From the NCBI GenBank assembly GCA_965649765.1, contig OZ287750.1:16988001-17052000 (forward strand): a stretch of 64,000 nucleotides of DNA. Direction: 5' to 3'. The translations under genes were made by a program, and so were the position numbers. Source of the stretch: Bispira polyomma (taxonomy: Eukaryota). Below, piece by piece: positions 1,216-23,484 of the stretch. The number at the start of each line of letters is the position of its first letter. The stretch's first letter is position 1. Below the pieces are notes generated by a model. The model had not been told where the DNA came from and searched no databases. It worked only from the letters and a program-made list of their open reading frames with translations.

Positions 1216-1366
1216 ATCGAAGATATCCTAAACTGCTGATCTAATTTTTAAAAACAAGGTAATGTATGGCATCAAAAACTGGAGGTCAAAGGTCAAGGTC
1301 ACTAATCCTAGATTTCTGATTTTAATAAGGTGCCATGTCTAAGATCTCTATGATTTCTTAAAAAAA

Positions 1367-1516
1367 CACCCAAAAATTCGACCAAAAAATCACACAAGTC
1401 TTTTTTACAAAGACTATTCTTGTGATTTTATTTGAATCTCCTCACTAATGCCCCAGCGCATGCGCTGGAAGTGCTGTCTACTTCTTGTCCTCGAGAAACC
1501 CTTCACAATTAATTTG
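1367..1516. repeat. DIRS-like inverted terminal repeat (element 3' side)
   Basis: Reverse complement of 9658-9785 (cacccaaaaattcgaccaaaaaa...caaagactattcttgtgatt...ggaagt..gtctacttct..tcctcgaga..ccttcacaa). This copy carries an extra segment with GCGCATGCGC. Confidence 0.85.
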
Positions 1517-1565
1517 GGAGATGTCTGCACAAATAAAAGTGGGGTTGGACTGGGCGGGATCTGGT

Positions 1566-1669
1566 TTAGTGAGGATAAGGTAAGTATTTATCTTCTAAAA
1601 AGATAAATTACAATGAAATTTTTACATTTTATTTCAATAAATACACCTTACCTTATCCTCACTAATGCT
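1566..1669. repeat. DIRS-like internal complementary region (self-complementary junction)
   Basis: TTAGTGAGGATAAGGTAAG...TATTTAT pairs with ATAAATA...CTTACCTTATCCTCACTAA. The right arm is complementary to 9796-9840. Confidence 0.7.
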
Positions 1670-2054
1670 TGAATCCAACCTTGAAGAAGGAGGAGGGTTA
1701 TTTGTGTGAAACAGAGCCCACCTAAGGAATTAAGGAGTTTTTAAAGCATTAGTTATTGAGGATAAGGCATTTGACTTACTCTGACACTTCAAATGAAGCA
1801 CGTAAGTCTCACAAACCAGCCAACTACCTAACTGAACAACAAGTATTGCTGCGTTCTATACAGATATGACTGTACCATATATGCATGTCAATAGGCCAAA
1901 AGGATGATGTTTTCTGGCTATTATGCTAAACCTTCATCAAAATGACATCACATGCCACAGCTGATCTTTTCACAATATGCCACTCAATGAAAGGGCTTGC
2001 AAAGGAAACAGACAAGCCATCAGCACATGCAAAGATGTATGTAGACAGTATAAA

Positions 2055-2950: not shown

Positions 2951-4640
2951 GTACTAAACATGTAGAGTATGAAAACCTGATCAAGAAGTAATACATCACC
3001 CACTTAATAGGTAAAGTACTGCACTGTAGCTGTCTTGCAAAGAAATAGTCATCTAGAATGGCACTAGATCTCCAAACTGAAAACCCTTCAGTTCTATACC
3101 TCACAGGTAGAGGACAGACAAATGAGAGAAACAAATAGCTCATCAGCATATGACTGTATGTTTGAACATAAAATAGTCCCTGTGAACTGTCAGATCTATC
3201 TAAATAATATGTTGCAGGTCTGGCAGGACACCAAAAAATAACTCCAGCAAATGAGGCATCCAGTGCAAATTTAACGGCTGGAATGATTACTAGTGGAATG
3301 TGGAATCTCAGAAGCCAACTAATTCAGTTCATTACTTTCAGACATGTCCAAAGCAGCAGTTAGCAACCTATCTGCAATTGCAATGTGATACTCAGCAATG
3401 GTTATAAATTCCTCGTCTGACCATCTTATGACTAGGATCATCATAAGTGACATCTGGACCTGAACAAGTCCTGTACAAAATCTGGGTAGATTGACACTCG
3501 GACAAAAGCATAACCATCCATAACCGTTTAATGTCTCTACTTGTATGATTATCAACATTTAATTTAAATCAACATGCATCTCCTCCAAATATTGTGAAAT
3601 TGTTTTGCTTGATTGCAAACAACTCGTTCATCTTGGATTCCCATATGAAAACTTTCCAAAATACTGCATTCCTTGAACAAAACATGACCCCTTAATAAGG
3701 ACATGAAAAAATTCAGTTGTGATCTGAACTACAATCTGCTTATATACTGTGCATTCACAAAAAATCCTGCTTCAGTAGGAAATGACAGTCTAGAAATTTG
3801 ATTCAGTATGTCACATCAATTTCAGACCTAAATAAACAACAGCCAGTCCATGGATATAAAAAATATGATCCAATTTGTGGGAGACTTCACATTCGAACGA
3901 ATCACAAAAATTAATACATGAAAATCGGTGCCAAGCACCACCCATGTAGCCTGTAGATTACAATATTCTGAGTAATTTAGTACTTGTATCTTGTAAATCA
4001 CTGTATCTTGTAAATCACTGTATCTTGTAAATCTGAATTGACAAATTGACAAATCTGGGAGTCGAAATATATGATTTAGAACTCTTCCCAAGAACAGTCA
4101 CTACTTCTTAAGCAATGCTGGATAAGACTGTGTTTAGCCAGAATACTGCAAGTTTTCACTGTGACAAAGCTGGCCTTTTGTGCAAGTTGAGAAGTTGTAC
4201 AAGCCTCTGCTTCTTCGTGACTGTCTAGACAGAAATCTCTGATGAGACTAGGATATAGCATAAAAACTGTTTTCTGTCAAAAAACATGGCTATTTCACCG
4301 ATTTGACAGTGTTCTGCCCAATCTTGAAACTTACATCACATCTTCCAGCAAAGCTGTATCTTTCTTGATAGCTGGAGAATCTGTGAGTCTGACATAATCC
4401 AGATTCTCCATAAAAGTTCAGACAACCTCTGTGAAACAGTCAACAACGAATCTGAAGAATTTGATGACTGTGAAGACTACTGTTGAGAAGACACTGCAAT
4501 TTCCTGGTTACTCTGTCTTCTGTCCATATAAGACTAATCTTAGAATACTGACTCTCAAGATTAGACATGGTTATATGTTAAATAATAATAATACATGGGT
4601 GCATTCTGAGTGTGAAAGAATGACAAAATGGGCTCTCCGG

Positions 4641-7043
4641 TTAAATAAATTGGTTAATTCCGACTGGATGGATAGCCCCAATTTTCCACATCCACCATTT
4701 CTCTCTCATTTTTCTATGATCAGATTTGGCAGTGTTATATTTTAGGGAGCACCATTCCAAAATAGAGAATTGCATATTTTTTACAGAATGTCCCTTACTA
4801 GTAAAATGTCTAGATACAGGGGTGATTCTGTTATCCTTTGGTTTAGAGACAGATAGTCTGTGTTCATAAATCCTAGCCCTAAATGGGCATCCTGTTTCTC
4901 CAACATAGTACTTATCACACTTGCTACATGTGATTAAGTATACTATGTCACTTAGTTCACAAGTAACATGTTTGGGGAGATCAGTGATAAATATCCTTTC
5001 ATTAGATATTTTTCCTATTACTTCTGTCTTATTTTTGATCAGAGGGCAATAGGTACACTTGCCAAGTCTTGTGCAGTGTTTTGGAAGGATTTGTTTGGTT
5101 TTTAGTCCTTTGGGTGGGTAACTGATTGAAACATTGGTAAGCAGATCCCTGAGGTTTGGTAATCTCCTGAAGCCAATCAGTGGTTCTTTACTGAACGTTT
5201 CGGCACAGTCATTACTGTGCTTAATTATGTTCCAGTTGTTATGGATAAACCCTTTGATGTCAGGGTTATTAGGGTTGAATTTTGTTATCATGACTGGGTT
5301 GGTTGAGGGAACTTTTTGTTTTACCTCAAGTAATTCATCTTGTGTGAATTTAGCAGCTTTAAGCATGTGCTTTTTAAGTGATTTGAGTGGGTACCCTCTG
5401 TTCAGGTAGTGTTCAATCATTTTGATTCCATGATGTATGAAATCTTCGTTTTTGGTGCATATTCTTCTAATTCTTAAGAATTGTGCAAATGGTCCTTTAG
5501 TGTGGCAAGGTCTATGGTGGGCTGAAGTGTGGTGCAGATATAAGTGTGTATCTGTCAGTTTTTCAAACAAAGTAGTGAAGAGTTTTCTGTTGTTATCAAT
5601 CTTGACTGTTGTATCTAAGAAATTGATTGATTCTTTGTTAAGTTCATATGTGAATTTAATTTTTGGGTGAATATTATTGATATATTCAATGAAATTCATT
5701 AGTTCATCTGTGCCATGTGTCCATATCATGAAAATGTCATCTATGAATCTGAGCCATAGTGGTGGTTTGTTCTGCCAGTTTTGTAGTGCCTTGGTTTCAA
5801 ATCTGTCCATGAACAAATTTGCATAGTTGGGGGCTAAGGCAGTCCCCATAGCTGTTCCTCCTATTTGTTGGAAGTAGTCCTCATTAAATGTGAAATTCAT
5901 ACTGTGTAGTACCAGTTTTAGTAATTCCAGAATATAAGGTGTGATTGGGTCTTTAATTTTATCCTGTCTGAGATGTGCTGCCACTGCCACAATACCCTCA
6001 TGATTAGGGATATTGGTGTACAGTGAGGATACATCTAGTGTTACTAAGAGTGCTCCATTAGGGATTTGTCCCATTTGTTTGAGCTTACTAATGAAGTGTT
6101 GAGTATCTCTTATGTAGGATTTAGTTTTAGGGACATATTCTCTAATATGTGCATCAACAAATTTGCTGATGTTACAAGTGGGGTGGCCTATTGAGCTACA
6201 AATTGGTCTACCAGGAACCTGTTTTTTATGTATTTTTGGTAGGAGGTAGAATCTACCTGGTTTAGGTTGTTGGATATTAAGGTAATCAAAATTTTGTTGG
6301 GTGATTAGCTTATGGTTTTTCATTTGTGTTAAAACCTGGCAAATCTTGTCTGAGATTTTCAGTGTTGGGTCTTCTTTTAGTTTAGTATAGAAGTTTTTAT
6401 CACTGAGTTGTCGATATCCTTCCCTTAGGTAGTCAGTGGTGTTCATAACTACGACAGCTGATCCTTTGTCAGCTTTCTTGATAACAATCTCAGGGTTTTT
6501 CCTGAGTTCATTTAGGCCTTGCCATTGCTGTTTGGTAAGGTTAGGGTGTCTATGGTTTTGGTTTGTCTTACTGTTGAGTAAGTCTACTTTGAAAGCTCTT
6601 TTGAATGAGTCCAATGTTTTGTTTGGGGGATTTGGTCTCCAGGATGATTTATTCTTGAAGGTTTTGTGGATATCCTTATAGGGATCATGCACTATTTCAG
6701 GGGCATCTTGTGTGTCCCTTGCGTTTTCATTCATAAAGTCAATGATACTTTGGGTGATATTAATATCAACTGTAGGAGTATCTGAGGAGAAGAATTGTCT
6801 TAGTTCAAGTCTCCTATTGAATTCTTTAAAGTCATCCCAAATCAGGGATTTATTAGGAGTACCAGGTGTAGGACAAAATGTTAGTCCTTTTTCTAGTGCT
6901 GTGACTTGATGTTCAGTAAGGGTTATTTTTGATATGTTAATGACATTATGTCCAATATAACTATCAAAATGGGTCCCTGTGGGGAGGATGCCTGGTGTGG
7001 CATTTATTGCTTCTAGTTCAATCTGTTCTTTTAAGCAGGCCAT
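4641..7043 (-). CDS. Penelope-like reverse transcriptase with C-terminal GIY-YIG endonuclease (800 aa)
   Basis: PLE RT motifs KGLTFCP, ADKG, FYLLPKIHK, GRPI, LDVSSLYTNIP, GTAMG, RFIDD and INFLD. Cys linker CTRLGKCTYC is Neptune-like. The endonuclease has VYLITCSKC..YVGET..R..EH..HF (CCHH) and GIN. Confidence 0.96.
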   Translation of the reverse strand: MACLKEQIELEAINATPGILPTGTHFDSYIGHNVINISKITLTEHQVTALEKGLTFCPTPGTPNKSLIWDDFKEFNRRLELRQFFSSDTPTVDINITQSIIDFMNENARDTQDAPEIVHDPYKDIHKTFKNKSSWRPNPPNKTLDSFKRAFKVDLLNSKTNQNHRHPNLTKQQWQGLNELRKNPEIVIKKADKGSAVVVMNTTDYLREGYRQLSDKNFYTKLKEDPTLKISDKICQVLTQMKNHKLITQQNFDYLNIQQPKPGRFYLLPKIHKKQVPGRPICSSIGHPTCNISKFVDAHIREYVPKTKSYIRDTQHFISKLKQMGQIPNGALLVTLDVSSLYTNIPNHEGIVAVAAHLRQDKIKDPITPYILELLKLVLHSMNFTFNEDYFQQIGGTAMGTALAPNYANLFMDRFETKALQNWQNKPPLWLRFIDDIFMIWTHGTDELMNFIEYINNIHPKIKFTYELNKESINFLDTTVKIDNNRKLFTTLFEKLTDTHLYLHHTSAHHRPCHTKGPFAQFLRIRRICTKNEDFIHHGIKMIEHYLNRGYPLKSLKKHMLKAAKFTQDELLEVKQKVPSTNPVMITKFNPNNPDIKGFIHNNWNIIKHSNDCAETFSKEPLIGFRRLPNLRDLLTNVSISYPPKGLKTKQILPKHCTRLGKCTYCPLIKNKTEVIGKISNERIFITDLPKHVTCELSDIVYLITCSKCDKYYVGETGCPFRARIYEHRLSVSKPKDNRITPVSRHFTSKGHSVKNMQFSILEWCSLKYNTAKSDHRKMREKWWMWKIGAIHPVGINQFI

Positions 7044-7219
7044 ATTAAGATAAGCATAAATATATGAATATATATATAATATTGAGTGAAAAAAACTGCT
7101 GTACTGAGGTAGTTTTTATTATGTGCAATTGCACCTGTTTTAAAAAGTATATAGTGATATGTTATAGAACAGGTGAATAAATAACATTATGGTGCAAATT
7201 CAAAAATGAGGTTGTCTGT

Positions 7220-7903
7220 TTATTTTAACAGTTTCTTCAGCTGCATCATAAATTTTTGGAGGGGTACATCGTTTTGTTTCCTTCCTTTATTGGGTATGAC
7301 CCTCCTTCTTTTGGTTGGGCGGGCTGAATTTCCATTGGGTAATTCATATTGCCTCTTGGCTTTGTTGGTCATAGTTGGTACTAGCTGAGTGGTTCTCTGT
7401 TGTAGGGAATCTTTGATTTCTTTGAGTTGGTCAGAACGTAATATCTTCTCCAATTCTTGGAAGTCAGTGTTAATGAGGCTCTTGATGTGGGAGTATTTTT
7501 CAAAGAGTTCATCTAATAGTGTTTTAGTGAGTATCTATTTACACTCTTCAATGATGGTGGTCCATTTAGCTTGGACATTATCACTTCTGCTCCTATTAAT
7601 ATTGAATTTGAACTCAATACTAGGTGGGTAAGTTTTTTTCAGCAATTTGCTATGCATTTTACTGATTTGACTGGCCAGTGCTATTTTCTTCCTGGTGTTG
7701 TTTTTCAACCTCAGGTAGATGGGTTTGGACTCCTGTGGGTATCCACTCCTTTGTGGGATGGCACTTGGACCTCCACTTGGGCTTATCTCTCTTCTGGGTC
7801 GTTTACCACTCTTGGGGCATTGCTCCTTGGGTTGGCTGGTCAGTTTGTTGCCGGCTGCCATAAGGAGATCCAGAGTTTCATCAGACAATTTGTCTTTAGG
7901 CAT
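7220..7903 (-). pseudogene. PLE upstream ORF1 (227 codons, one in-frame TAG at 7535-7537)
   Basis: ORFs 7535-7903 and 7220-7453 share one frame, joined as ...IIEECK*ILTKTLLDELFEKYSHIKSLINTDFQELEKIL.... The product is basic and helical, with NLS-like GKRPRR and KRRR. Confidence 0.7.
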
Positions 7904-8518
7904 TGGTGTATCAGCAGCTCTAATGTCCTTGATTTCAGACTGGACATATTATACATATTCACCAGGTTAAAAAATACACTTTAACCTAGATATATGCACA
8001 ATTATGTGTACATCTATTTAGTTACCCCAATTGCTGTATTATCATATGGACTGTAAGGGACCCCACAAAAGAAAGGGGACCACTTACCTATATCTTTACA
8101 AGAATAAAATAAAAATATATTTCCATGAATAACAGAACTTTCATTACCTGTGTCTATTATAATGTCTGTAAGGGGTGTAAATAACACCAGGACTCCCACT
8201 TCAATAATAGACTACATTTAAAGGTAACACTTGTAACCAGAAGTGAACATATATTCCAATGATACCCAACCTTCCTAAGTCATTAGGAGGCAATAGGTCT
8301 GAATGCAATGTGAATCAAATATGGAATATCATCCCAAAAATATTTAAAATCATTAAAATCGATTTTAAACAATACAAAAAGTGACCTACCTACTAAATTA
8401 AAATTTCACCAGCACCCACTTTTCAGGTGAAAAACCGGTGCATACACCAGGTGCAATAAACCGGTGCAATTGCACTCCTCAAAAGGTACTTCAGGGGATA
8501 AGTTACCACTAATCTCCA

Positions 8519-8588
8519 GCCTCTGATGAGAAAGTCAAAATCACTTTCGAAATACAAGTTGTATTAATAAAATATAACAGTATCAGGC
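8519..8588 (+). ncRNA. Type I hammerhead ribozyme
   Basis: Stem I GCCT 8519-22/AGGC 8585-88. Core CTGATGA 8523-29. Stem II GAAAGT/ACTTTC. GAAA 8549-52. Stem III ATAC/GTAT, extended by GTTGTATT/AATATAAC. Cleavage triplet AUC, with the cut predicted after 8584. Confidence 0.9.
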
Positions 8589-9657
8589 CAACACATAGTA
8601 TACAGAGAGAACTATCTTACCAGTGATTACCTACACTTCACTTATTTTCTGTTATATGTTAAATAACACAGATCTTCTGTCTTTAGTCATAGCTTCATCA
8701 ACAGGACATAATAACACAGAAACTGGTAGATATTCTGATTCATCCCCCAGCATTCTGACAGGTCGACGTAGACGCTCTTTGGTAGCTTCAAGACACAAAA
8801 ATTGTGGTAACAAAGCTGACAGAGAGGTAACTCAGGGATCAATCAGCTGTAAGACATACTAAAAGCTTCCAGTGTTCACAACGAACAATAAGCAAGAAAT
8901 AGATCAGTCATCTTCAGGTAGATCTAGGATCATCATCTGTAGGACATACTAAGAGCTTCTAGCGTTCACAATGAACTATAAGCAATTAATATATCACCCA
9001 AATGCTGTGGAGGCTTTTAACAAGCACACAGCTCTGAGTTTGTTGAAACATCACTGTTAGGACATCACAGTTCGTACATCACTTTTGTAACATCTCAAGC
9101 AAAAAACTGTATCTCCAGGACCAATGTATGCTGCCATATGACTTCTCAGCTACACCATCCTCACTATGCACAGTAGTAGTAGCACCCAACACATTTCCCG
9201 ACTCGAATTTAAAAAGTCGATCCGAAGTGGTGGCGAATTGAGCCATAATCGCCTGCAGGACTGAGTCCATACCTGATGCTGTATAGTGTTGATGATTTTG
9301 GGCAGAAACGACCTCTGTTAAAGGTCGATCCTCCCGACCTTGTCATGCCTCCTAATCTTGGCGTCACTGTTGAGACATCACCATTGGGACATTCGTACAA
9401 ACTCACAAACGCTGTGGAGGCTTTTAAGCACACAAACAGAAGTTTTCCAAAATAGCTGTTTCAAAACTCGGGAATGAATGCAAAAGATCGCCAACGAAAT
9501 GGTAGGTCTGTTAAATTCTCAAAACGCTGCGTTAGAAGAATATCACTGCAGAGACCAAAGTTCCTCAGCCATAATATATGCTGCCTTATGAAAAAAAGCA
9601 TCTTCTCTTGTAAAAATCCATAGTAGTAGATCGAACTAGGTGTTGACACAATGGCGA

Positions 9658-9843
9658 CCAAATTATTTGTGAAGGATATCTCGAGGATGAGAAGTAGACG
9701 GGACTTCCGGTGATTCAAGTATAATCACAAGAATAGTCTTTGTAAAAAAGACTTATGTGCTTTTTTGGTCGAATTTTTGGGTGTACTAAATTAAAAGCAT
9801 TAGTAAGGATAAGGTAAGGTGTATTTATCGCAATAAAAAAAAA
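9658..9843. repeat. DIRS-like inverted terminal repeat (element 5' side) and terminus
   Basis: Inverted match to both 1367-1516 and 1627-1669. Confidence 0.85.
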
Positions 9844-10098
9844 TCGTTGATAGTTCAGAAAACTACATTACTACAATAAGATGACAATAAAGGCAATTTA
9901 CTAACATGAGATGTATTACTGACTTTCTCTTTGCATATCACCATCTATCAATGTAGTAAATTAAAAATACAAAACTTTTGATATTGATAACTGCGATTTG
10001 TGTCGAAGTAATATATGTGCATAGAATAACCATGAATTACAATATCCTTTAAAACAAAAATGGAATAAAAAAATTATATTTTTTATTCAAACTCTTAG

Positions 10099-10255
10099 AA
10101 CTCGACTCCAGAAGATGGTGTCTGTTGCTATGGTGCAGTGTCGTCGTGACATGCTATGGCAGCGTATGCTGATCAACACCAACTTGGGAGAAGAGAGTGC
10201 TCTCAGACGTCGGCATAAGTCAGGCTGGCTGGCCTCTGATAACGCTAATGATCCG
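10099..10255 (+). CDS. SZT2: SZT2 coding exon
   Basis: ctcttAG|A ACT...GAT CCG|GTAAGT. Reads TRLQKMVSVAMVQCRRDMLWQRMLINTNLGEESALRRRHKSGWLASDNANDP. CRRDxLWxR matches the SZT2 C-terminal region as I recall it. Confidence 0.88.
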
Positions 10256-13200
10256 GTAAGTACAGACTTAGTTAGAGGGTGGTTGTCATAAGTCAGTTTG
10301 GCTGGCCTCAGATAACGCTAATGATCCGGTAAGTACAGGATTAGTTAGAGGGTGGGTGTCATAAGTCAGTTTGGCTGGCCTCAGATAACGCTAATGGTCT
10401 GGTGAGTACAGACTTATTTAGAGGGTGGGTGTCATAAGTCAGGCTGGCTGGCCTCTGATAACGCTAATGATCCGATGAGTACAGACTTATTTAGAGGGTG
10501 GGTGTCATAAGTCAGGCTGGCTGGCCTCAGATAACGCTAATGATCCGGTGAGTACTGACTTATTTAGAGGGTGGGTGTCATAAGTCAGGCTGGCTGGCCT
10601 CAGATAACGCTAATGATCCGGTAAGTACAGACTTAGTTAGAGGGTGGTTGTCATAAGTCAGGCTGGCTGGCCTCTGATAACGCTAATGATCATGTAAGTA
10701 CTGAATTAGTTAGAGGGTCGTTGTCATAAGTCAGTTTGGCTGGCCTCAGATAACGCTAATGGTCTGGTGAGTACAGACTTAGTTCTAGGGTGGTTGTCAT
10801 AAGTCAGGCTGGCTGGCCTCTGATAACGCTAATGATCCGGTAAGTACTGACTTAGTTAGAGGGTGGTTGTCATAAGTCAGGCTGGCCTCAGATAACGCTA
10901 ATGATCCGGTAAGTACAGACTTAGTTAGAGGGTGGTTGTCATAAGTCAGGCTGGCTGGCCTCAGATAACGCTAATGATCCCGTAAGTACAGACTTAGTTA
11001 GAGGGTGGTTGTCATAAGTCAGGCTGGCTGGCCTCTGATAACGCTAATGATCATGTAAGTACTGAATTAGTTAGAGGGTCGTTGTCATAAGTCAGTTTGG
11101 CTGGCCTCAGATAACGCTAATGGTCTGGTGAGTACAGACTTAGTTCTAGGGTGGTTGTCATAAGTCAGGCTGGCTGGCCTCTGATAACGCTAATGATCCG
11201 GTAAGTACTGACTTAGTTAGAGGGTGGTTGTCATAAGTCAGGCTGGCCTCTGATAACGCTAATGATCCAGTAAGTACAGACTTAGTTAGAGGGTGGTTGT
11301 CATAAGTCAGTTTGGCTGGCCTCAGATAACGCTAATGATCCGGTAAGTACAGGATTAGTTAGAGGGTGGGTGTCATAAGTCAGTTCCGGTAAGTACAGAC
11401 TTAGTTAGAGGGTGGTTGTCATAAGTCAGTTTGGCTGGCCTCAGATAACGCTAATGGTCTGGTGAGTACAGACTTATTTAGAGGGTGGGTGTCATAAGTC
11501 AGGCTGGCTGGCCTCTGATAACGCTAATGATCCGATGAGTACAGACTTAGTTAGAGAGTGGGTGTCATAAGTCAGGCTGGCTGGCCTCAGATAACGCTAA
11601 TGATCCGGTGAGTACTGACTTAGTTAGAGGGTGGGTGTCATAAGTCAGGCTGGCTGGCCTCAGATAACGCTAATGATCCGGTAAGTACAGACTTAGTTAG
11701 AGGGTGGTTGTCATAAGTCAGGCTGGCTGGCCTCAGATAACGCTAATGATCCAGTAAGTACAGACTTAGTTAGAGGGTGGTTGTCATAAGTCAGGCTGGC
11801 TGGCCTCAGATAACGCTAATGATCCCGTAAGTACAGACTTAGTTAGAGGGTGGTTGTCATAAGTCAGGCTGGCTGGCCTCTGATAACGCTAATGATCATG
11901 TAAGTACTGAATTAGTTAGAGGGTCGTTGTCATAAGTCAGTTTGGCTGGCCTCAGATAACGCTAATGGTCTGGTGAGTACAGACTTAGTTCTAGGGTGGT
12001 TGTCATAAGTCAGGCTGGCTGGCCTCTGATAACGCTAATGATCCGGTAAGTATTGACTTAGTTAGAGGGTGGTTGTCATAAGTCAGGCTGGCCTCTGATA
12101 ACGCTAATGATCCAGTAAGTACAGACTTAGTTAGAGGGTGGTTGTCATAAGTCAGTTTGGCTGGCCTCAGATAACGCTAATGGTCTGGTGAGTACAGACT
12201 TATTTAGAGGGTGGGTGTCATAAGTCAGGCTGGCTGGCCTCTGATAACGCTAATGATCCGATGAGTACAGACTTAGTTAGAGAGTGGGTGTCATAAGTCA
12301 GGCTGGCTGGCCTCAGATAACGCTAATGATCCGGTGAGTACTGACTTAGTTAGAGGGTGGGTGTCATAAGTCAGGCTGGCTGGCCTCAGATAACGCTAAT
12401 GATCCGGTAAGTACAGACTTAGTTAGAGGGTGGTTGTCATAAGTCAGGCTGGCTGGCCTCAGATAACGCTAATGATCCAGTAAGTACAGACTTAGTTAGA
12501 GGGTGGTTGTCATAAGTCAGGCTGGCTGGCCTCAGATAACGCTAATGATCCCGTAAGTACAGACTTAGTTAGAGGGTGGTTGTCATAAGTCAGGCTGGCT
12601 GGCCTCTGATAACGCTAATGATCATGTAAGTACTGAATTAGTTAGAGGGTCGTTGTCATAAGTCAGTTTGGCTGGCCTCAGATAACGCTAATGGTCTGGT
12701 GAGTACAGACTTAGTTCTAGGGTGGTTGTCATAAGTCAGGCTGGCTGGCCTCTGATAACGCTAATGATCCGGTAAGTATTGACTTAGTTAGAGGGTGGTT
12801 GTCATAAGTCAGGCTGGCCTCTGATAACGCTAATGATCCAGTAAGTACAGACTTAGTTAGAGGGTGGTTGTCATAAGTCAGTTTGGCTGGCCTCAGATAA
12901 CGCTAATGATCCGGTAAGTACAGGATTAGTTAGAGGGTGGGTGTCATAAGTCAGTTCCGGTAAGTACAGACTTAGTTAGAGGGTGGTTGTCATAAGTCAG
13001 TTTGGCTGGCCTCAGATAACGCTAATGGTCTGGTGAGTACAGACTTATTTAGAGGGTGGGTGTCATAAGTCAGGCTGGCTGGCCTCTGATAACGCTAATG
13101 ATCCGATGAGTACAGACTTAGTTAGAGAGTGGGCGTCATAAGTCAGGCTGGCTGGCCTCAGATAACGCTAATGATCCGGTGAGTACTGACTTAGTTAGAG

Positions 13201-16200
13201 GGTGGGTGTCATAAGTCAGGCTGGCTGGCCTCGGATAACGCTAATGATCCCGTAAGTACAGACTTAGTTAGAGGGTGGTTGTCATAAGTCAGGCTGGCTG
13301 GCCTCTGATAACGCTAATGATCCAGTAAGTACAGACTTAGTTAGAGGGTGGTTGTCATAAGTCAGGCTGGCTGGCCTCAGATAACGCTAATGATCATGTA
13401 AGTACAGACTTAGTTAGAGGGTGGGTGTCATAAGTGAGGCTGGCTGGCCTCAGATAACGCTAATGATCCCGTAAGTACTGACTTAGTTAGAGGGTGGTTG
13501 TCATAAGTCAGGCTGGCTGGCCTCTGATAATTCTAATGATCATGTAAGTACTGACTTAGTTAGAGGGTGGTTGTCACAAGTCAGGCTGGCTGGCCTCAGA
13601 TAACGCTAATGATCCGGTAAGTACAGACTTAGTTAGAGGGTGGTTGTCATAAGTCAGTTTGGCTGGCATCAGATAACGCTAATGATCCGGTAAGTACAGG
13701 CTTAGTTAGAGGGTGGTTGTCATAAGTCAGTTTGGCTGGCCTCAGATAACGCTAATGATCCCGTAAGTACAGACTTAGTTAGAGGGTGGTTGTCATAAGT
13801 CAGTTTGGCTGGCCTCAGATAACGCTAATGGTCTGGTGAGTACAGACTTATTTAGAGGGTGGATGTCATAGTCAGGCTGGCTGGCCTCTGATAACGCTAA
13901 TGTTCCGGTAAGTACAGACTTAGTTAGAGGGTGGTTGTCATAAGTCAGTTTGGCTGGCCTCAGATAACGCTAATGGTCTGGTGAGTACAGACTTATTTAG
14001 AGGGTGGGTGTCATAAGTCAGGCTGGCTGGCCTCAGATAACGCTAATGATCCGGTGAGTACTGACTTAGTTAGAGGGTGGGTGTCATAATTCAGGCTGGC
14101 TGGCCTCTGGTAACGCTAATGATCCGGTAAGTACAGACTCAGTTAGAGGGTCGTTGTCATAAGTCAGGCTGGCTGGCCTCTGATAACGCTAATGATTCGG
14201 TAAGTACAGACTTAGTTCCAGGGTGGTTGTCATAAGTCAGGCTGGCTGGCCTCTGATAACGCTAATGATCCAGTAAGTACAGACTTAGTTAGAGGGTGGT
14301 TGTCATAAGTCAGGCTGGCTGGCCTCAGATAACTCTAATGATCCAGTGAGTACAGACTTATTTAGAGGGTGGGTGTCATAAGTCAGGCTGGCTGGCCTCT
14401 GATAACGCTAATGATCCGGTAAGTACAGACTTAGTTCCAGGGTGGTTGTCATAAGTCAGGCTGGCTGGCCTCTGATAACGCTAATGATCCAGTAAGTACA
14501 GACTTAGTTAGAGGGTGGTTGTCATAAGTCAGGCTGGCTGGCCTCAGATAACTCTAATGATCCAGTGAGTACAGACTTATTTAGAGGGTGGGTGTCATAA
14601 GTCAGGCTGGCTGGCCTCAGATAACGCTAATGATCCGGTAAGTACAGACTTAGTTAGAGGGTGGTTGTCATAAGTCAGGCTGGCTGGCCTCTGATAACGC
14701 TAATGATCATGTAAGTACTGAATTAGTTAGAGGGTCGTTGTCATAAGTCAGTTTGGCTGGCCTCAGATAACGCTAATGGTCTGGTGAGTACAGACTTAGT
14801 TCTAGGGTGGTTGTCATAAGTCAGGCTGGCTGGCCTCTGATAACGCTAATGATCCGGTAAGTACTGACTTAGTTAGAGGGTGGTTGTCATAAGTCAGGCT
14901 GGCCTCAGATAACGCTAATGATCCGGTAAGTACAGACTTAGTTAGAGGGTGGTTGTCATAAGTCAGGCTGGCTGACCTCAGATAACTCTAATGATCCCGT
15001 AAGTACAGACTTAGTTAGAGGGTGGTTGTCATAAGTCAGGCTGGCTGGCTTCAGATAACGCTAATGATCCGGTAAGTACAGACTTAGTTAGAGGGTGGTT
15101 GTCATAAGTCAGGCTGGCTGGCCTCAGATAACGCTAATGATCATGTAAGTACAGACTTAGAAAGAGGGTGGTTGTCATAAGTCAGGCTGGCTGGCCTCAG
15201 ATAACGCTAATGATCATGTAAGTACAGACTTAGTTAGAGGGTCGTTGTCATAAGTCAGTTTGGCTGGCCTCTGATAACGCTAATGATCATGTAAGTACAG
15301 ACTTAGTTAGAGGGTGTTTGTCATAAGTCAGGCTGGCTGGCCTCTGATAACGCTAATGATCCGGTAAGTACAGACCTATTTAGAGGGTGGGTGTCATAAG
15401 TCAGGCTGGCTGGCCTCAGATAACGCTAATGATCCGGTAAGTACAGACTTAGTTAGAGGGTGGTTGTCATAAGTCAGGCTGGCTGGCCTCTGATAACGCT
15501 AATGATCCGGTAAGTACAGACTTAGTTAGAGGGTGGGTGTCATAAGTCAGTTTGGCTGGCCTCAGATAACGCTAATGATCCGGTAAGTACAGGATTAGTT
15601 AGAGGGTGGGTGTCATAAGTCAGTTCCGGTAAGTACAGACTTAGTTAGAGGGTGGTTGTGATAAGTCAGGCTGGCCTCTGATAACGCTAATGATCCGGTA
15701 AGTACAGACTTAGTTAGAGGGTGGGTGTCATAAGTCAGTTTGGCTGGCCTCAGATAACGCTAATGATCCGGTAAGTACAGGATTAGTTAGAGGGTGGGTG
15801 TCATAAGTCAGTTCCGGTAAGTACAGACTTAGTTAGAGGGTGGTTGTCATAAGTCAGTTTGGCTGGCCTCAGATAACGCTAATGGTCTGGTGAGTACAGA
15901 CTTATTTAGAGGGTGGGTGTCATAAGTCAGGCTGGCTGGCCTCAGATAACGCTAATGGTCTGGTGAGTACAGACTTAGTTAGAGGGTGGGTGTCATAAGT
16001 CAGGCTGGCTGGCCTCAGATAACGCTAATGGTCTGGTGAGTACAGACTTAGTTAGAGGGTGGTTGTCATAAGTCAGTTTGGCTGGCATCAGATAACGCTA
16101 ATGATCCGGTAAGTACAGGCTTAGTTAGAGGGTGGTTGTCATAAGTCAGTTTGGCTGGCCTCAGATAACGCTAATGATCCCGTAAGTACAGACTTAGTTA

Positions 16201-19200
16201 GAGGGTGGTTGTCATAAGTCAGTTTGGCTGGCCTCAGATAACGCTAATGGTCTGGTGAGTACAGACTTATTTAGAGGGTGGATGTCATAGTCAGGCTGGC
16301 TGGCCTCTGATAACGCTAATGTTCCGGTAAGTACAGACTTAGTTAGAGGGTGGTTGTCATAAGTCAGTTTGGCTGGCCTCAGATAACGCTAATGGTCTGG
16401 TGAGTACAGACTTATTTAGAGGGTGGGTGTCATAAGTCAGGCTGGCTGGCCTCAGATAACGCTAATGATCCGGTGAGTACTGACTTAGTTAGAGGGTGGG
16501 TGTCATAATTCAGGCTGGCTGGCCTCTGGTAACGCTAATGATCCGGTAAGTACAGACTCAGTTAGAGGGTCGTTGTCATAAGTCAGGCTGGCTGGCCTCT
16601 GATAACGCTAATGATTCGGTAAGTACAGACTTAGTTCCAGGGTGGTTGTCATAAGTCAGGCTGGCTGGCCTCTGATAACGCTAATGATCCAGTAAGTACA
16701 GACTTAGTTAGAGGGTGGTTGTCATAAGTCAGGCTGGCTGGCCTCAGATAACTCTAATGATCCAGTGAGTACAGACTTATTTAGAGGGTGGGTGTCATAA
16801 GTCAGGCTGGCTGGCCTCTGATAACGCTAATGATCCGGTAAGTACAGACTTAGTTCCAGGGTGGTTGTCATAAGTCAGGCTGGCTGGCCTCTGATAACGC
16901 TAATGATCCAGTAAGTACAGACTTAGTTAGAGGGTGGTTGTCATAAGTCAGGCTGGCTGGCCTCAGATAACTCTAATGATCCAGTGAGTACAGACTTATT
17001 TAGAGGGTGGGTGTCATAAGTCAGGCTGGCTGGCCTCAGATAACGCTAATGATCCGGTAAGTACAGACTTAGTTAGAGGGTGGTTGTCATAAGTCAGGCT
17101 GGCTGGCCTCTGATAACGCTAATGATCATGTAAGTACTGAATTAGTTAGAGGGTCGTTGTCATAAGTCAGTTTGGCTGGCCTCAGATAACGCTAATGGTC
17201 TGGTGAGTACAGACTTAGTTCTAGGGTGGTTGTCATAAGTCAGGCTGGCTGGCCTCTGATAACGCTAATGATCCGGTAAGTACTGACTTAGTTAGAGGGT
17301 GGTTGTCATAAGTCAGGCTGGCCTCAGATAACGCTAATGATCCGGTAAGTACAGACTTAGTTAGAGGGTGGTTGTCATAAGTCAGGCTGGCTGACCTCAG
17401 ATAACTCTAATGATCCCGTAAGTACAGACTTAGTTAGAGGGTGGTTGTCATAAGTCAGGCTGGCTGGCTTCAGATAACGCTAATGATCCGGTAAGTACAG
17501 ACTTAGTTAGAGGGTGGTTGTCATAAGTCAGGCTGGCTGGCCTCAGATAACGCTAATGATCATGTAAGTACAGACTTAGAAAGAGGGTGGTTGTCATAAG
17601 TCAGGCTGGCTGGCCTCAGATAACGCTAATGATCATGTAAGTACAGACTTAGTTAGAGGGTCGTTGTCATAAGTCAGTTTGGCTGGCCTCTGATAACGCT
17701 AATGATCATGTAAGTACAGACTTAGTTAGAGGGTGTTTGTCATAAGTCAGGCTGGCTGGCCTCTGATAACGCTAATGATCCGGTAAGTACAGACCTATTT
17801 AGAGGGTGGGTGTCATAAGTCAGGCTGGCTGGCCTCAGATAACGCTAATGATCCGGTAAGTACAGACTTAGTTAGAGGGTGGTTGTCATAAGTCAGGCTG
17901 GCTGGCCTCTGATAACGCTAATGATCCGGTAAGTACAGACTTAGTTAGAGGGTGGGTGTCATAAGTCAGTTTGGCTGGCCTCAGATAACGCTAATGATCC
18001 GGTAAGTACAGGATTAGTTAGAGGGTGGGTGTCATAAGTCAGTTCCGGTAAGTACAGACTTAGTTAGAGGGTGGTTGTGATAAGTCAGGCTGGCCTCTGA
18101 TAACGCTAATGATCCGGTAAGTACAGACTTAGTTAGAGGGTGGGTGTCATAAGTCAGTTTGGCTGGCCTCAGATAACGCTAATGATCCGGTAAGTACAGG
18201 ATTAGTTAGAGGGTGGGTGTCATAAGTCAGTTCCGGTAAGTACAGACTTAGTTAGAGGGTGGTTGTCATAAGTCAGTTTGGCTGGCCTCAGATAACGCTA
18301 ATGGTCTGGTGAGTACAGACTTATTTAGAGGGTGGGTGTCATAAGTCAGGCTGGCTGGCCTCAGATAACGCTAATGGTCTGGTGAGTACAGACTTAGTTA
18401 GAGGGTGGGTGTCATAAGTCAGGCTGGCTGGCCTCAGATAACGCTAATGGTCTGGTGAGTACAGACTTAGTTAGAGGGTGGTTGTCATAAGTCAGGCTGG
18501 CTGGCTTTAGATAACGCTAATGATCTGGTAAGTACAGACTTAGTTAGAGGGTGGTTGTCATAAGTCAGGCTGGCTGGCCTCAGATAACACTAATGATCCA
18601 GTAAGTACAGACTTAGTTAGAGGGTGGTTGTCATAAGTCAGGCTGGCTGGCCTCTGATAACGCTAATGATCCAGTAAGTACAGACTTAGTTAGAGGGTGG
18701 TTGTCATAAGTCAGGCTGGCTGGCCTCTGATAACGCTAATGATCCAGTAAGTACAGACTTAGTTAGAGGGTGGTTGTCATAAATCAGGCTGGCTGGCTTT
18801 AGATAACGCTAATGATCCGGTAAGTACAGACTTAGTTAGAGGGTCGTTGTCATAAGTCAGTTTGGCTGGCCTCAGATAACGCTAATGGTCTGGTGAGTAC
18901 AGACTTAGTTAGAGGGTGGGTGTCATAAGTCAGGCTGGCTGGCCTCAGATAACGCTAATGGTCTGGTGAGTACAGACTTAGTTAGAGGGTGGTTGTCATA
19001 AGTCAGGCTGGCTGGCTTTAGATAACGCTAATGATCTGGTAAGTACAGACTTAGTTAGAGGGTGGTTGTCATAAGTCAGGCTGGCTGACCTCTAATAACG
19101 CTAATGATCCGGTAAGTACAGACTTAGTTCCAGGGTGGTTGTCATAAGTCAGTTTGGCTGGCCTCAGATAACGCTAATGATCATGTAAGTACAGACTTAG

Positions 19201-20148
19201 TTAGAGGGTGGGTGTCATAAGTGAGGCTGGCTGGCCTCAGATAACGCTAATGATCCCGTAAGTACTGACTTAGTTAGAGGGTGGTTGTCATAAGTCAGGC
19301 TGGCTGGCCTCTGATAATTCTAATGATCATGTAAGTACTGACTTAGTTAGAGGGTGGTTGTCACAAGTCAGGCTGGTTGGCCTCAGATAACGCTAATGAT
19401 CCGGTAAGTACAGGCTTAGTTAGAGGGTGGTTGTCATAAGTCAGTTTGGCTGGCCTCAGATAACGCTAATGATCCCGTAAGTACAGACTTAGTTAGAGGG
19501 TGGGTGTCATAAGTCAGTTTGGCTGGCCTCAGATAACGCTAATGGTCTGGTGAGTACAGACTTATTTAGAGGGTGGATGTCATAGTCAGGCTGGCTTGCC
19601 TCTGATAACGCTAATGTTCCGGTAAGTACAGACTTAGTTAGAGGGTGGTTGTCATAAGTCAGTTTGGCTGGCCTCAGATAACGCTAATGGTCTGGTGAGT
19701 ACAGACTTATTTAGAGGGTGGGTGTCATAAGTCAGGCTGGCTGGCCTCAGATAACGCTAATGATCCGGTGAGTACTGACTTAGTTAGAGGGTGGGTGTCA
19801 TAATTCAGGCTGGCTGGCCTCTGATAACGCTAATGATCCGGTAAGTACAGACTCAGTTAGAGGGTCGTTGTCATAAGTCAGGCTGGCTGGCCTCTGATAA
19901 CGCTAATGATCCGGTAAGTACAGACTTAGTTCCAGGGTGGTTGTCATAAGTCAGGCTGGCTGGCCTCAGATAACGCTAATGATCCGGTAAGTACAGACTT
20001 AGTTAGAGGGTGGGTGTCATAAGTCAGGCTGGCTGGCCTCAGATAACGCTAATGATCATGTAAGTACAGACTTAGTTAGAGGGTGGTTGTCATAAGTCAG
20101 GCTGGCTGGCCTCAGATAACGCTATTGATCATGTAAGTACAGACTTAG
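10214..20148 (+). repeat. 73-bp intronic tandem array (~135 units) containing the SZT2 exon end and 5' splice site
   Basis: Unit GTCATAAGTCAGGCTGGCTGGCCTCWGATAACGCTAATGATCCG|GTAAGTACAGACTTAGTTAGAGGGTGGTT. The first copy overlaps the coding exon. Confidence 0.98.
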
Positions 20149-23375: not shown

Positions 23376-23484
23376 GGGGCCATATTCACGAAGGGACTTA
23401 GCCAGGCCTTAGACTTAAATCAGTATACTTTTGTGCTAGATTTAAGCCTAAGACCTGGCTAAGTCCCTTCGTGAATATGGCCCC
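23376..23484. mobile_element. Short near-perfect palindromic MITE
   Basis: GGGGCCATATTCACGAAGGGACTTAGCCAGG...CCTGGCTAAGTCCCTTCGTGAATATGGCCCC. Confidence 0.8.

What the first reader, a model, noticed from the sequence alone, without database searches (positions are those of the whole stretch)
7043..7903. Two-ORF architecture in an endonuclease-containing Penelope element
Seen: a 227-codon basic, helical ORF ends with TAA at 7220 and is separated from the RT-EN ATG (7043) by a 176-bp AT-rich spacer. Known: canonical EN+ PLEs have a single ORF, whereas extra coiled-coil ORFs are features of EN- Athena/Terminon elements. Inference: this is either a bicistronic Neptune-like lineage with the N-terminal helical domain split off as a Gag/ORF1-like protein, or the two frames are joined by splicing.
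Basis: partly seen in the sequence, partly recalled or inferred. Interest (0 to 1): 0.75.

Follow-up and report, generated by a model that had tools for sequence, protein, structure and literature searches.

The report
Three-gene Penelope retrotransposon with zinc-finger protein
This jumping gene belongs to a Penelope-type lineage that carries three separate genes instead of the usual one (a split-off helical protein, the copying enzyme and a zinc-finger protein), and the zinc-finger protein likely regulates the other two through a short DNA motif placed in front of each.

Summary
(1) The window's ORF1 is not open: it has a stop at codon 123 and lost its 5' end at an inversion. Sister copies show a 262-aa ORF1 with the same terminal stop. 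(2) The full unit has a third gene, a two-finger C2H2 ORF after the RT-endonuclease, missing from this truncated copy. The order ribozyme-ORF1-spacer-RT/GIY-YIG-ZnF recurs in 12 divergent families of this genome; a metagenome contig shows the ORF1/RT split too. ORF1 is homologous to the N-terminal helical domain of single-ORF Penelope proteins, not to Gag. ORF1 and ZnF are under purifying selection. Splice fusion is unlikely: spacer phase varies and no donor is conserved. A promoter-like module (GGxGC-N5-GGxGC-N10-ACYT) precedes both ORF1 and RT; its middle base tracks finger-1 residue +3 in 11 of 12 families, but one of two advance predictions failed. Best reading: separately transcribed genes, with the ZnF as the element's own transcription factor (inferred; no RNA data).

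The parts
4570..4585 (.). Target-site duplication, copy at end A (16 bp, overlaps the element end)
   Evidence: 14-17 bp TSDs in 10 of 12 family-A copies
4581..4640 (-). 3' trailer of RT-EN ending in (ATT)n: fixed insertion end A. In tandem copies the ~2.07-kb segment X with the ZnF ORF follows here
4641..7043 (-). Intact RT + GIY-YIG ORF, 800 aa; DKG at 192, FIDD at 433, CX4CxxC linker at 657, Cys pair inside the GIY-YIG motif at 701
7044..7219 (-). 176-nt non-coding spacer between ORF1 and RT; AATAAA at 7224-7219 and 7120-7115
7104..7137 (-). Spacer copy of the promoter-like module (GGTGC ... ACCTCAG), inferred internal promoter of the RT gene
   Evidence: promoter function inferred
7220..7942 (-). 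ORF1 (detached PLE N-terminal helical domain plus lineage-specific terminal helices); broken in this copy by a stop at 7537-7535 and loss of the 5' end; 262 aa in intact sister copies
7939..8655 (+). Inverted 717-bp piece of the pLTR-like segment X, running from inside X to fixed end B (8655); too short to reach the ZnF ORF
8461..8494 (+). Pre-ribozyme copy of the module at the end of a GGTG array; in uninverted copies it faces ORF1, here it points away
8519..8588 (+). Type I hammerhead ribozyme motif (predicted cut after 8584); lies 70-80 nt before the ORF1 ATG in uninverted copies
   Evidence: missed by Rfam on four sister loci
8651..8666 (.). Target-site duplication, copy at end B

Best explanation
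The window holds a damaged copy of a Penelope-like retrotransposon whose full unit carries three same-strand genes (ORF1, RT-endonuclease, C2H2 zinc-finger ORF), which are likely transcribed as separate units, with the zinc-finger protein predicted to bind a module in front of ORF1 and of RT. Shown: gene order, conserved stop, selection on ORF1 and ZnF, homology of ORF1 to the N-terminal helical domain of single-ORF PLEs, the ribozyme motif, the duplicated module, TSDs. Inferred: (1) CRE-like palindromes behind the RT stop drive the ZnF gene; (2) the ZnF protein binds the GGxGC pentamers, spaced one helical turn apart, and regulates (more likely activates) an ORF1 promoter and an internal RT promoter (about 0.5); (3) ORF1 supplies in trans the dimerisation/nucleic-acid-binding function that this domain is predicted to have in fused PLE proteins, so its amount is uncoupled from RT; (4) read-through RNA across tandem units is the template, and RT primes at two fixed sites (A and B), one at each target strand, giving the inverted ends.
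For: Conserved split: terminal TAA in 9 of 9 family-A copies; 147 ORF1 matches in the genome down to 30% identity, full-length ones in open frames of about 250-320 codons; none of 144 RT matches has an open frame above 860 codons; 124 ORF1 homologues from other assemblies are at most 358 aa, and most of the 26 of >=240 aa end in the same amphipathic helix; contig L142 shows ribozyme, ORF1, 119-nt spacer, RT; a DNA contig of another run bridges ORF1, spacer and RT start (record 14). dN/dS 0.10-0.33 for 12 between-family ORF1 pairs, 0.18-0.29 for 7 ZnF pairs. ZnF ORF starts 306-696 nt after the RT end at 17 places in 15 of 51 loci and is found in 12 of 12 families; tandem array L102 has all three ORFs open. 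RT clade 100/100 with a fused sister protein P0129. Module 30-34 nt before the ribozyme in 13 of 13 families and 32-48 nt before the RT ATG in the 10 families where measured it; the two copies of a family resemble each other more than other families' copies (14.4 vs 10.7 of 25; 0 of 20000 permutations; 7 clades p=0.001). Finger-1 +3 Ser goes with GGTG (4 families), Asn with GGAG (6), Tyr with GGGG (1); Asn-adenine and Arg/Lys-guanine fit the C2H2 code (PMC12264921 passages). AATAAA near the ORF1 stop in 11 of 13 vs 3.5 expected.
Against: No transcript, start-site, binding or protein data of any kind. One of two predictions written in advance failed: family G has GGAGC but Tyr, not Asn, at +3; the one that held (H) is sister to the C families. 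The Ser/Asn switch is only 1-2 events on the tree (node 83/58). Module anchors were picked by eye and two were corrected after a first run (12.85 vs 9.91, p=0.00035), and relatedness makes the permutation lenient. Antisense TTTATT occurs in 7 of 13 spacers, and AATAAA over a Lys-TAA junction is partly a by-product. Ser is a weak, versatile reader in the code. CRE palindromes were seen in 5 of 8 printed regions, not in family D. A ribozyme cut just after the inferred ORF1 start would remove the cap. Two within-family ORF1 pairs gave dN/dS 1.47 and 0.63 on few changes.
Confidence: 0.6

Rival explanations
1. One polycistronic RNA (as in L1) carries ORF1 and RT; RT is made by termination-reinitiation or cap-independent initiation on ribozyme-cut or circular RNA. 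The modules are host-factor sites or RNA elements and the ZnF protein has another role (RNA binding, chromatin, target choice).
For: Short spacer of 119-290 nt; ribozyme 70-80 nt before ORF1 in all families with an intact 5' end; tandem arrays imply read-through RNA; the failed prediction for family G; circular-RNA templates proposed for PLEs (PMC4209133 passage).
Against: Family-specific duplication of the module in the spacer at fixed distance from the ATG, with 10-bp periodicity typical of DNA-bound factors; AATAAA excess after ORF1.
Confidence: 0.2
2. ORF1 lies in an alternatively spliced intron: a donor at ORF1 codons 2-8 is joined to an acceptor in the spacer (CCTCAG), giving the RT mRNA, while unspliced RNA gives ORF1.
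For: GTRAGT scoring 6-7 bits at codons 2-8 in 8 of 13 families; several spacers read YYYY..CCTCAG; 5'-UTR introns are known in Penelope and Chlamys-3 (PMC8557442 passage).
Against: No such donor in 5 of 13 families; the AG is missing in the spacers of families A2, B and L142 and the same core occurs upstream of the ribozyme; the codons are explained by a conserved Ser-Val-Ser.
Confidence: 0.12
3. One reading: an intron in the 3' end of ORF1 and the spacer joins ORF1 and RT into one canonical polyprotein.
For: PLEs retain introns; the frame from the module to the RT ATG is in phase with RT in 7 of 10 families; ORF1 is the domain that is fused in relatives.
Against: No donor at a shared position in the last 150 nt of ORF1, best score 5.9 bits, none in family C; the candidate acceptor AG at about 7135 is lost in 2 of 9 copies; the helix right before the stop is conserved across all families; stop-to-ATG phase takes all three values within family A and between families.
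Confidence: 0.06
4. The ZnF ORF is a captured host fragment riding passively between pLTRs, and the split is decay.
For: PLEs capture host DNA between ORF and pLTR (PMC3846280); the commonest short derivatives delete the fingers.
Against: Same position in 12 of 12 families whose RTs differ by up to 46%; dN/dS 0.18-0.29; intronless; tandem arrays with all three ORFs open.
Confidence: 0.02

Closest known systems
Neptune-clade EN+ Penelope-like elements (PMC8557442)
   Same: RT followed by C-terminal GIY-YIG, CX2-5CxxC linker, Cys pair within GIY-YIG, DKG motif, type I hammerhead in the pLTR, tandem and inverted ends, TSDs.
   Different: N-terminal helical domain is a separate gene; a third C2H2 gene fills a ~2-kb pLTR; duplicated family-specific module before ORF1 and RT.
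Fundulus Neptune repeat.CL27 (10.1101/2025.05.22.655539; PMC12602865)
   Same: ORF1, 173-nt gap, then RT/GIY-YIG ORF2.
   Different: ORF1 is 420 nt and was left unidentified; no third ORF or motif described in the passages read. Its sequence could not be compared here, so common origin of the split is open.
Poseidon of Anolis (PAc; PMC11167929)
   Same: Extended N-terminal helix (27-173, predicted homodimer) is the likely counterpart of ORF1's core; internal RT initiation near the ORF start, ATT cut preference, need for the first 172 nt of the ORF parallel end B, end A and the ~176 nt kept by short derivatives here.
   Different: Single ORF; two adjacent start sites 30-40 nt apart, versus two ends about 2 kb apart here. 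Homology to PAc itself was not tested.
Chlamys-2_cBra and EN- Athena/Terminon elements
   Same: PLEs with additional ORFs.
   Different: Chlamys-2 has N-terminal EN and a CCHC gag-like upstream ORF; Athena/Terminons lack a fused EN and are telomeric. Here EN is C-terminal and the extra ORFs are a split domain and a C2H2 protein.
Foamy virus Tas circuit (functional analogy; PMC8670036 abstract start only, rest recalled)
   Same: A retroelement-encoded transactivator acting on two promoters of its own element.
   Different: Unrelated RT class and protein; the function here is inferred.

Membership tests
EN+ Penelope-like elements | PLE-type RT with C-terminal GIY-YIG endonuclease in one ORF | tested here: met
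   Pfam RVT_1 and GIY-YIG; motifs
EN+ Penelope-like elements | CCHH motif with two Cys between GIY and YIG | tested here: met
   VYLITCSKCDKYYVG at 701 and downstream His residues
EN+ Penelope-like elements | Type I hammerhead in pLTR; tandem/inverted pLTR ends; variable TSD | tested here: met
   cleavage not assayed
Canonical EN+ PLE (Penelope/Poseidon, Neptune, Nematis) | Single ORF including the N-terminal domain | tested here: not met
   three ORFs in 12 families; so filed as a Neptune-like variant, not a canonical member
Neptune/Nematis | CX2-5CxxC linker between RT and EN | tested here: met
   CTRLGKCTYC at 657
Neptune | RT groups with named Neptune references rather than Nematis | tested here: inconclusive
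   Tree has only unnamed relatives bearing the same linker; no named references were available
Athena/Coprina/Terminon (EN- PLEs) | No EN fused to RT; telomeric attachment | tested here: not met
   EN present; interstitial insertions with TSDs
Gag or L1 ORF1p-like structural proteins | Capsid fold, CCHC knuckle or RRM | tested here: inconclusive
   No knuckle in the sequence, no Pfam hit, model all-helical, fold searches give only generic helical hairpins
PLE N-terminal helical domain | Sequence homology to the region N-terminal of RT in single-ORF PLEs | tested here: met
Sequence-specific C2H2 transcription factors | Tandem C2H2 fingers with base-reading residues | tested here: met
   Pfam zf-C2H2 E 1e-6; finger table
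Sequence-specific C2H2 transcription factors | Binds cognate DNA and changes transcription | not testable with these tools
   only co-variation, 11 of 12 families

The most novel reading that the evidence does not exclude
A Penelope-like retrotransposon lineage that behaves like a complex retrovirus: it encodes its own two-finger transcription factor, which co-evolves with a family-specific promoter motif and switches on separate ORF1 and RT genes, giving each family a private regulatory code.
Probability: 0.45. Interest if true: 0.87.

Novelty: new variant of a known kind. Interest (0 to 1): 0.72.

Why it matters
Endonuclease-bearing PLEs are described as single-ORF elements and their mechanism is barely known. 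A natural split isolates the N-terminal helical domain, so its role (dimerisation, RNA binding, trans action) becomes directly testable. A dedicated DNA-binding gene conserved across a whole lineage, with a motif that shifts with the finger, would be a rare case of a non-LTR-type retroelement regulating its own transcription, and a dozen natural finger/motif pairs in one genome give a ready test. The two fixed ends 2 kb apart also bear on how PLEs prime both target strands.

Tried and rejected
RNA evidence: no RNA holder listed; the three runs laid look like DNA and their joints are deletions, none a GT-AG junction across the spacer; no evidence either way on splicing. Rfam found no hammerhead in four loci; it was found by pattern. 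Pfam: nothing for ORF1. Search of longer proteins with the ORF1 alignment: none among 7991 scored candidates (weak); homology appeared only in the targeted test. hhalign of A1 against single P0129 was not significant (E 0.2), though the fused-domain profile hits it at 4e-20. Foldseek PDB: no hit at E<=0.001; VIA best Z 9.8, rmsd 5.5, generic helices. ESM Atlas did not hold the sequences. Complex prediction of an ORF1 dimer was not available: no verdict. Metagenome scan gave 1 locus, too short to show a ZnF ORF. Earlier scan notes: none on this element. Rejected: the 110-aa antisense ORF at 7652-7984 as a gene (97-110 aa shadow of ORF1; not tested further); the inverted 717-bp piece as a separate MITE (it is part of segment X and lies inside one TSD pair); stop read-through or frameshift (phase varies). 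Literature: nine full-text searches found no three-ORF or C2H2-bearing EN+ PLE; Arkhipova 2006, the Terminon paper (not held), Repbase and Dfam were not seen, figures are not held, and the killifish supplement was cut when stored, so prior description there is possible.
Full report
OBSERVATION. The minus strand carries an intact 800-aa RT + GIY-YIG ORF at 7043-4641. But the frame is not open: codon 123 is TAG (7537-7535). A DNA search of the own genome gave 44 matches; I fetched 11 long copies and aligned the 8 that cover ORF1 with the window. All 8 have a sense codon at that place, all 9 share the terminal TAA, 2 (L033, L034) have a fully open 262-aa ORF1 that starts 35 codons earlier, 2 are open but 5'-truncated, and 4 have private lesions. 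The window copy lost the ORF1 start at an inversion near 7940.

THE WHOLE UNIT. Window 8655-7939 is an inverted piece of a ~2.07-kb segment X that, in L031, L037 and L039, follows the RT end directly and, in other copies, leads into ORF1. X holds a third same-sense ORF of 274 aa with two N-terminal C2H2 fingers (Pfam E 1e-6), an AT-rich stretch, a GGTG array and a type I hammerhead motif that Rfam missed. Insertions end at two fixed points, A (4581, in an ATT run) and B (8655, 9 nt before the ORF1 ATG); 10 of 12 copies have 14-17 bp TSDs, the window's at 4570-4585 and 8651-8666, so the inverted piece and the body are one insertion.

LINEAGE. ORF1 finds 147 matches in the genome down to 30% identity (146 of 525 candidates scored). 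I fetched 52 further 10-kb loci chosen from the match lists and sorted them by eye into 12 families. All 12 have ORF1 separate from RT and a ZnF ORF. The ZnF start lies 306-696 nt after the RT end at 17 places in 15 of the 51 loci then examined; most other copies end at A or are truncated. Tandem arrays exist (L102 with all three ORFs open, L103, L104, L122, L123). None of 144 RT matches lies in an open frame above 860 codons. The RTs of 15 rows form a clade at 100/100; the sister row P0129 (99/94) is a fused 1134-aa protein (family G and L142 not in the tree). Outside the genome, 19 and 108 ORF1 homologues were listed, all at most 358 aa and unnamed, and a metagenome contig shows ribozyme, ORF1, 119-nt spacer and RT. 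Nei-Gojobori dN/dS is 0.10-0.33 for 12 between-family ORF1 pairs (two near-identical pairs gave 1.47 and 0.63; pairs with pN above 0.33 were not printed) and 0.18-0.29 for 7 ZnF pairs, 3 more being saturated.

WHAT ORF1 IS. The model has a long helical hairpin and a third helix at pLDDT 88-97 (residues 94-219) with short conserved helices in disordered ends; fold searches give only generic hairpins. Of 120 long PLE proteins, 117 have N-terminal extensions of 80 aa or more; the ORF1 profile hits 16 at E<=0.001, reversed controls at best 0.069. A profile of 23 such extensions (picked from those hits, so partly circular) matches all 28 ORF1 rows at E<=2.4e-5 and aligns to the ORF1 profile at 96.6%. 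ORF1 is therefore the detached N-terminal PLE domain. In Anolis Poseidon an extended helix at 27-173 is predicted to form a head-to-tail dimer (PMC11167929, parts 1-2 of 4 read); that ORF1 does the same in trans is inference, and the dimer prediction could not be run.

SPLICING OR SEPARATE GENES. Stop-to-ATG distance is 164-184 nt in 8 family-A copies and 140-290 nt in 10 families, in all three phases. No donor sits at a shared place in the last 150 nt of ORF1 (weights recalled), and the helix before the stop is conserved. A donor-like GTRAGT at ORF1 codons 2-8 in 8 of 13 families keeps an ORF1-as-intron model alive at low odds. In favour of separate transcription, a module GGxGC-N5-GGxGC-N10-ACYT lies 30-34 nt before the ribozyme in 13 of 13 families and again in the spacer, 32-48 nt before the RT ATG in the 10 families measured; some spacer copies keep only one good pentamer. 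A family's two copies resemble each other more than other families' copies (14.4 vs 10.7 of 25 letters, 0 of 20000 permutations; one row per clade p=0.001), with anchors set by eye and relatedness uncorrected. In L142 the core reads like a TATA box. AATAAA lies near the ORF1 stop in 11 of 13 (3.5 expected; antisense 7 of 13). No RNA run was listed, so none of this is shown at RNA level.

THE ZINC FINGER. The middle base of the pentamer is T in families A, A2, B, E (finger-1 +3 Ser), A in C, C2, C3, F, F2 (+3 Asn) and G in D (+3 Tyr); +6 is Arg and -1 Arg or Lys, matching the flanking guanines. Asn-adenine and Arg/Lys-guanine are standard in the code, Ser is versatile (PMC12264921, passages). 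I wrote a prediction before looking: G and H should have Asn. H does; G has Tyr with Gln at -1, so the rule holds in 11 of 12 and the harder test failed; the third prediction (L038 type) could not be read. A shifted register (GGA) could fit G but is after the fact. The tree allows only 1-2 Ser/Asn switches. I put cognate binding at about 0.5.

MECHANISM, COMMITTED. CRE-like sites drive the ZnF gene; the ZnF protein binds the modules and regulates separate ORF1 and RT transcripts; ORF1 acts in trans as the helical scaffold of the RNP; read-through RNA from tandem units is the template, primed at A and B on the two target strands. Architecture, homology and selection are shown; promoters, binding, trans action and priming are inferred.

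PRIOR KNOWLEDGE. Canonical EN+ PLEs have one ORF (PMC8557442, part 1 of 10 and passages; PMC6431247, PMC4209133, passages; PMC3846280, parts 1-2 of 5; 10.64898/2026.07.22.740005, part 1 of 5). Exceptions in print: killifish Neptune with an unidentified ORF1, a 173-nt gap and ORF2 (10.1101/2025.05.22.655539 and PMC12602865, passages; supplement cut) and Chlamys-2_cBra. Nine searches showed no three-ORF or C2H2-bearing EN+ PLE, but Repbase, Dfam, Arkhipova 2006 and the Terminon paper were not seen. The foamy-virus analogy rests on one abstract start (PMC8670036) and recall.

VERDICT. Observation partly confirmed; split-domain reading supported, Gag and splice readings not; real architecture three-gene. 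New variant of a known kind; interest 0.72; self-encoded transcription factor probability 0.45, interest 0.87 if true.

Noticed in passing
window 10108-20148: 10-kb satellite of a 73-bp unit, about 137 copies, with higher-order variants.
   Followed up: no
L021, L026, L094, L016 and others; joint 3164-5918: Abundant ~2.2-kb non-autonomous derivative: keeps the ribozyme, module array, first ~176 nt of ORF1 and the last ~500 nt of the RT unit, and deletes the zinc fingers, ORF1 core and RT.
   Followed up: partly
family-A copies L031-L041 and window: Two fixed ends about 2 kb apart in the unit; 8 of 12 long copies have A at one end and B at the other in tail-to-tail orientation, 4 are 5'-truncated and end at A. 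L031 spans more than one unit length.
   Followed up: partly
L037, L102, L103, L104, L119 (120-210 nt before the ZnF ATG): Clusters of TGACGTCA-like (CRE) palindromes between the RT stop and the ZnF ORF; the CRE label is recalled.
   Followed up: partly
window 1366-1670 and 9658-9844: Inverted repeats 8 kb apart that bracket the PLE; may be ends of an older element into which it inserted.
   Followed up: no
window 23376-23484: 46-bp arms, 96% complementary, 17-nt loop.
   Followed up: no
L110 6294-8012: A second, more distant PLE RT (about 40% identity) directly behind a family-H copy.
   Followed up: no
L114 6943-9641: Repeated 180-270 aa ORFs starting MSSPLE, unrelated to the three PLE ORFs.
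   Followed up: no
L038 spacer and ORF1: Older subfamily copy with a long (TA)n run in the spacer and a poly-C run inside ORF1.
   Followed up: no
ZnF ORF tails in families A, A2, D, G: A conserved TNT[ED]P...PDE motif in the otherwise variable tail, a possible cofactor-binding site.
   Followed up: no
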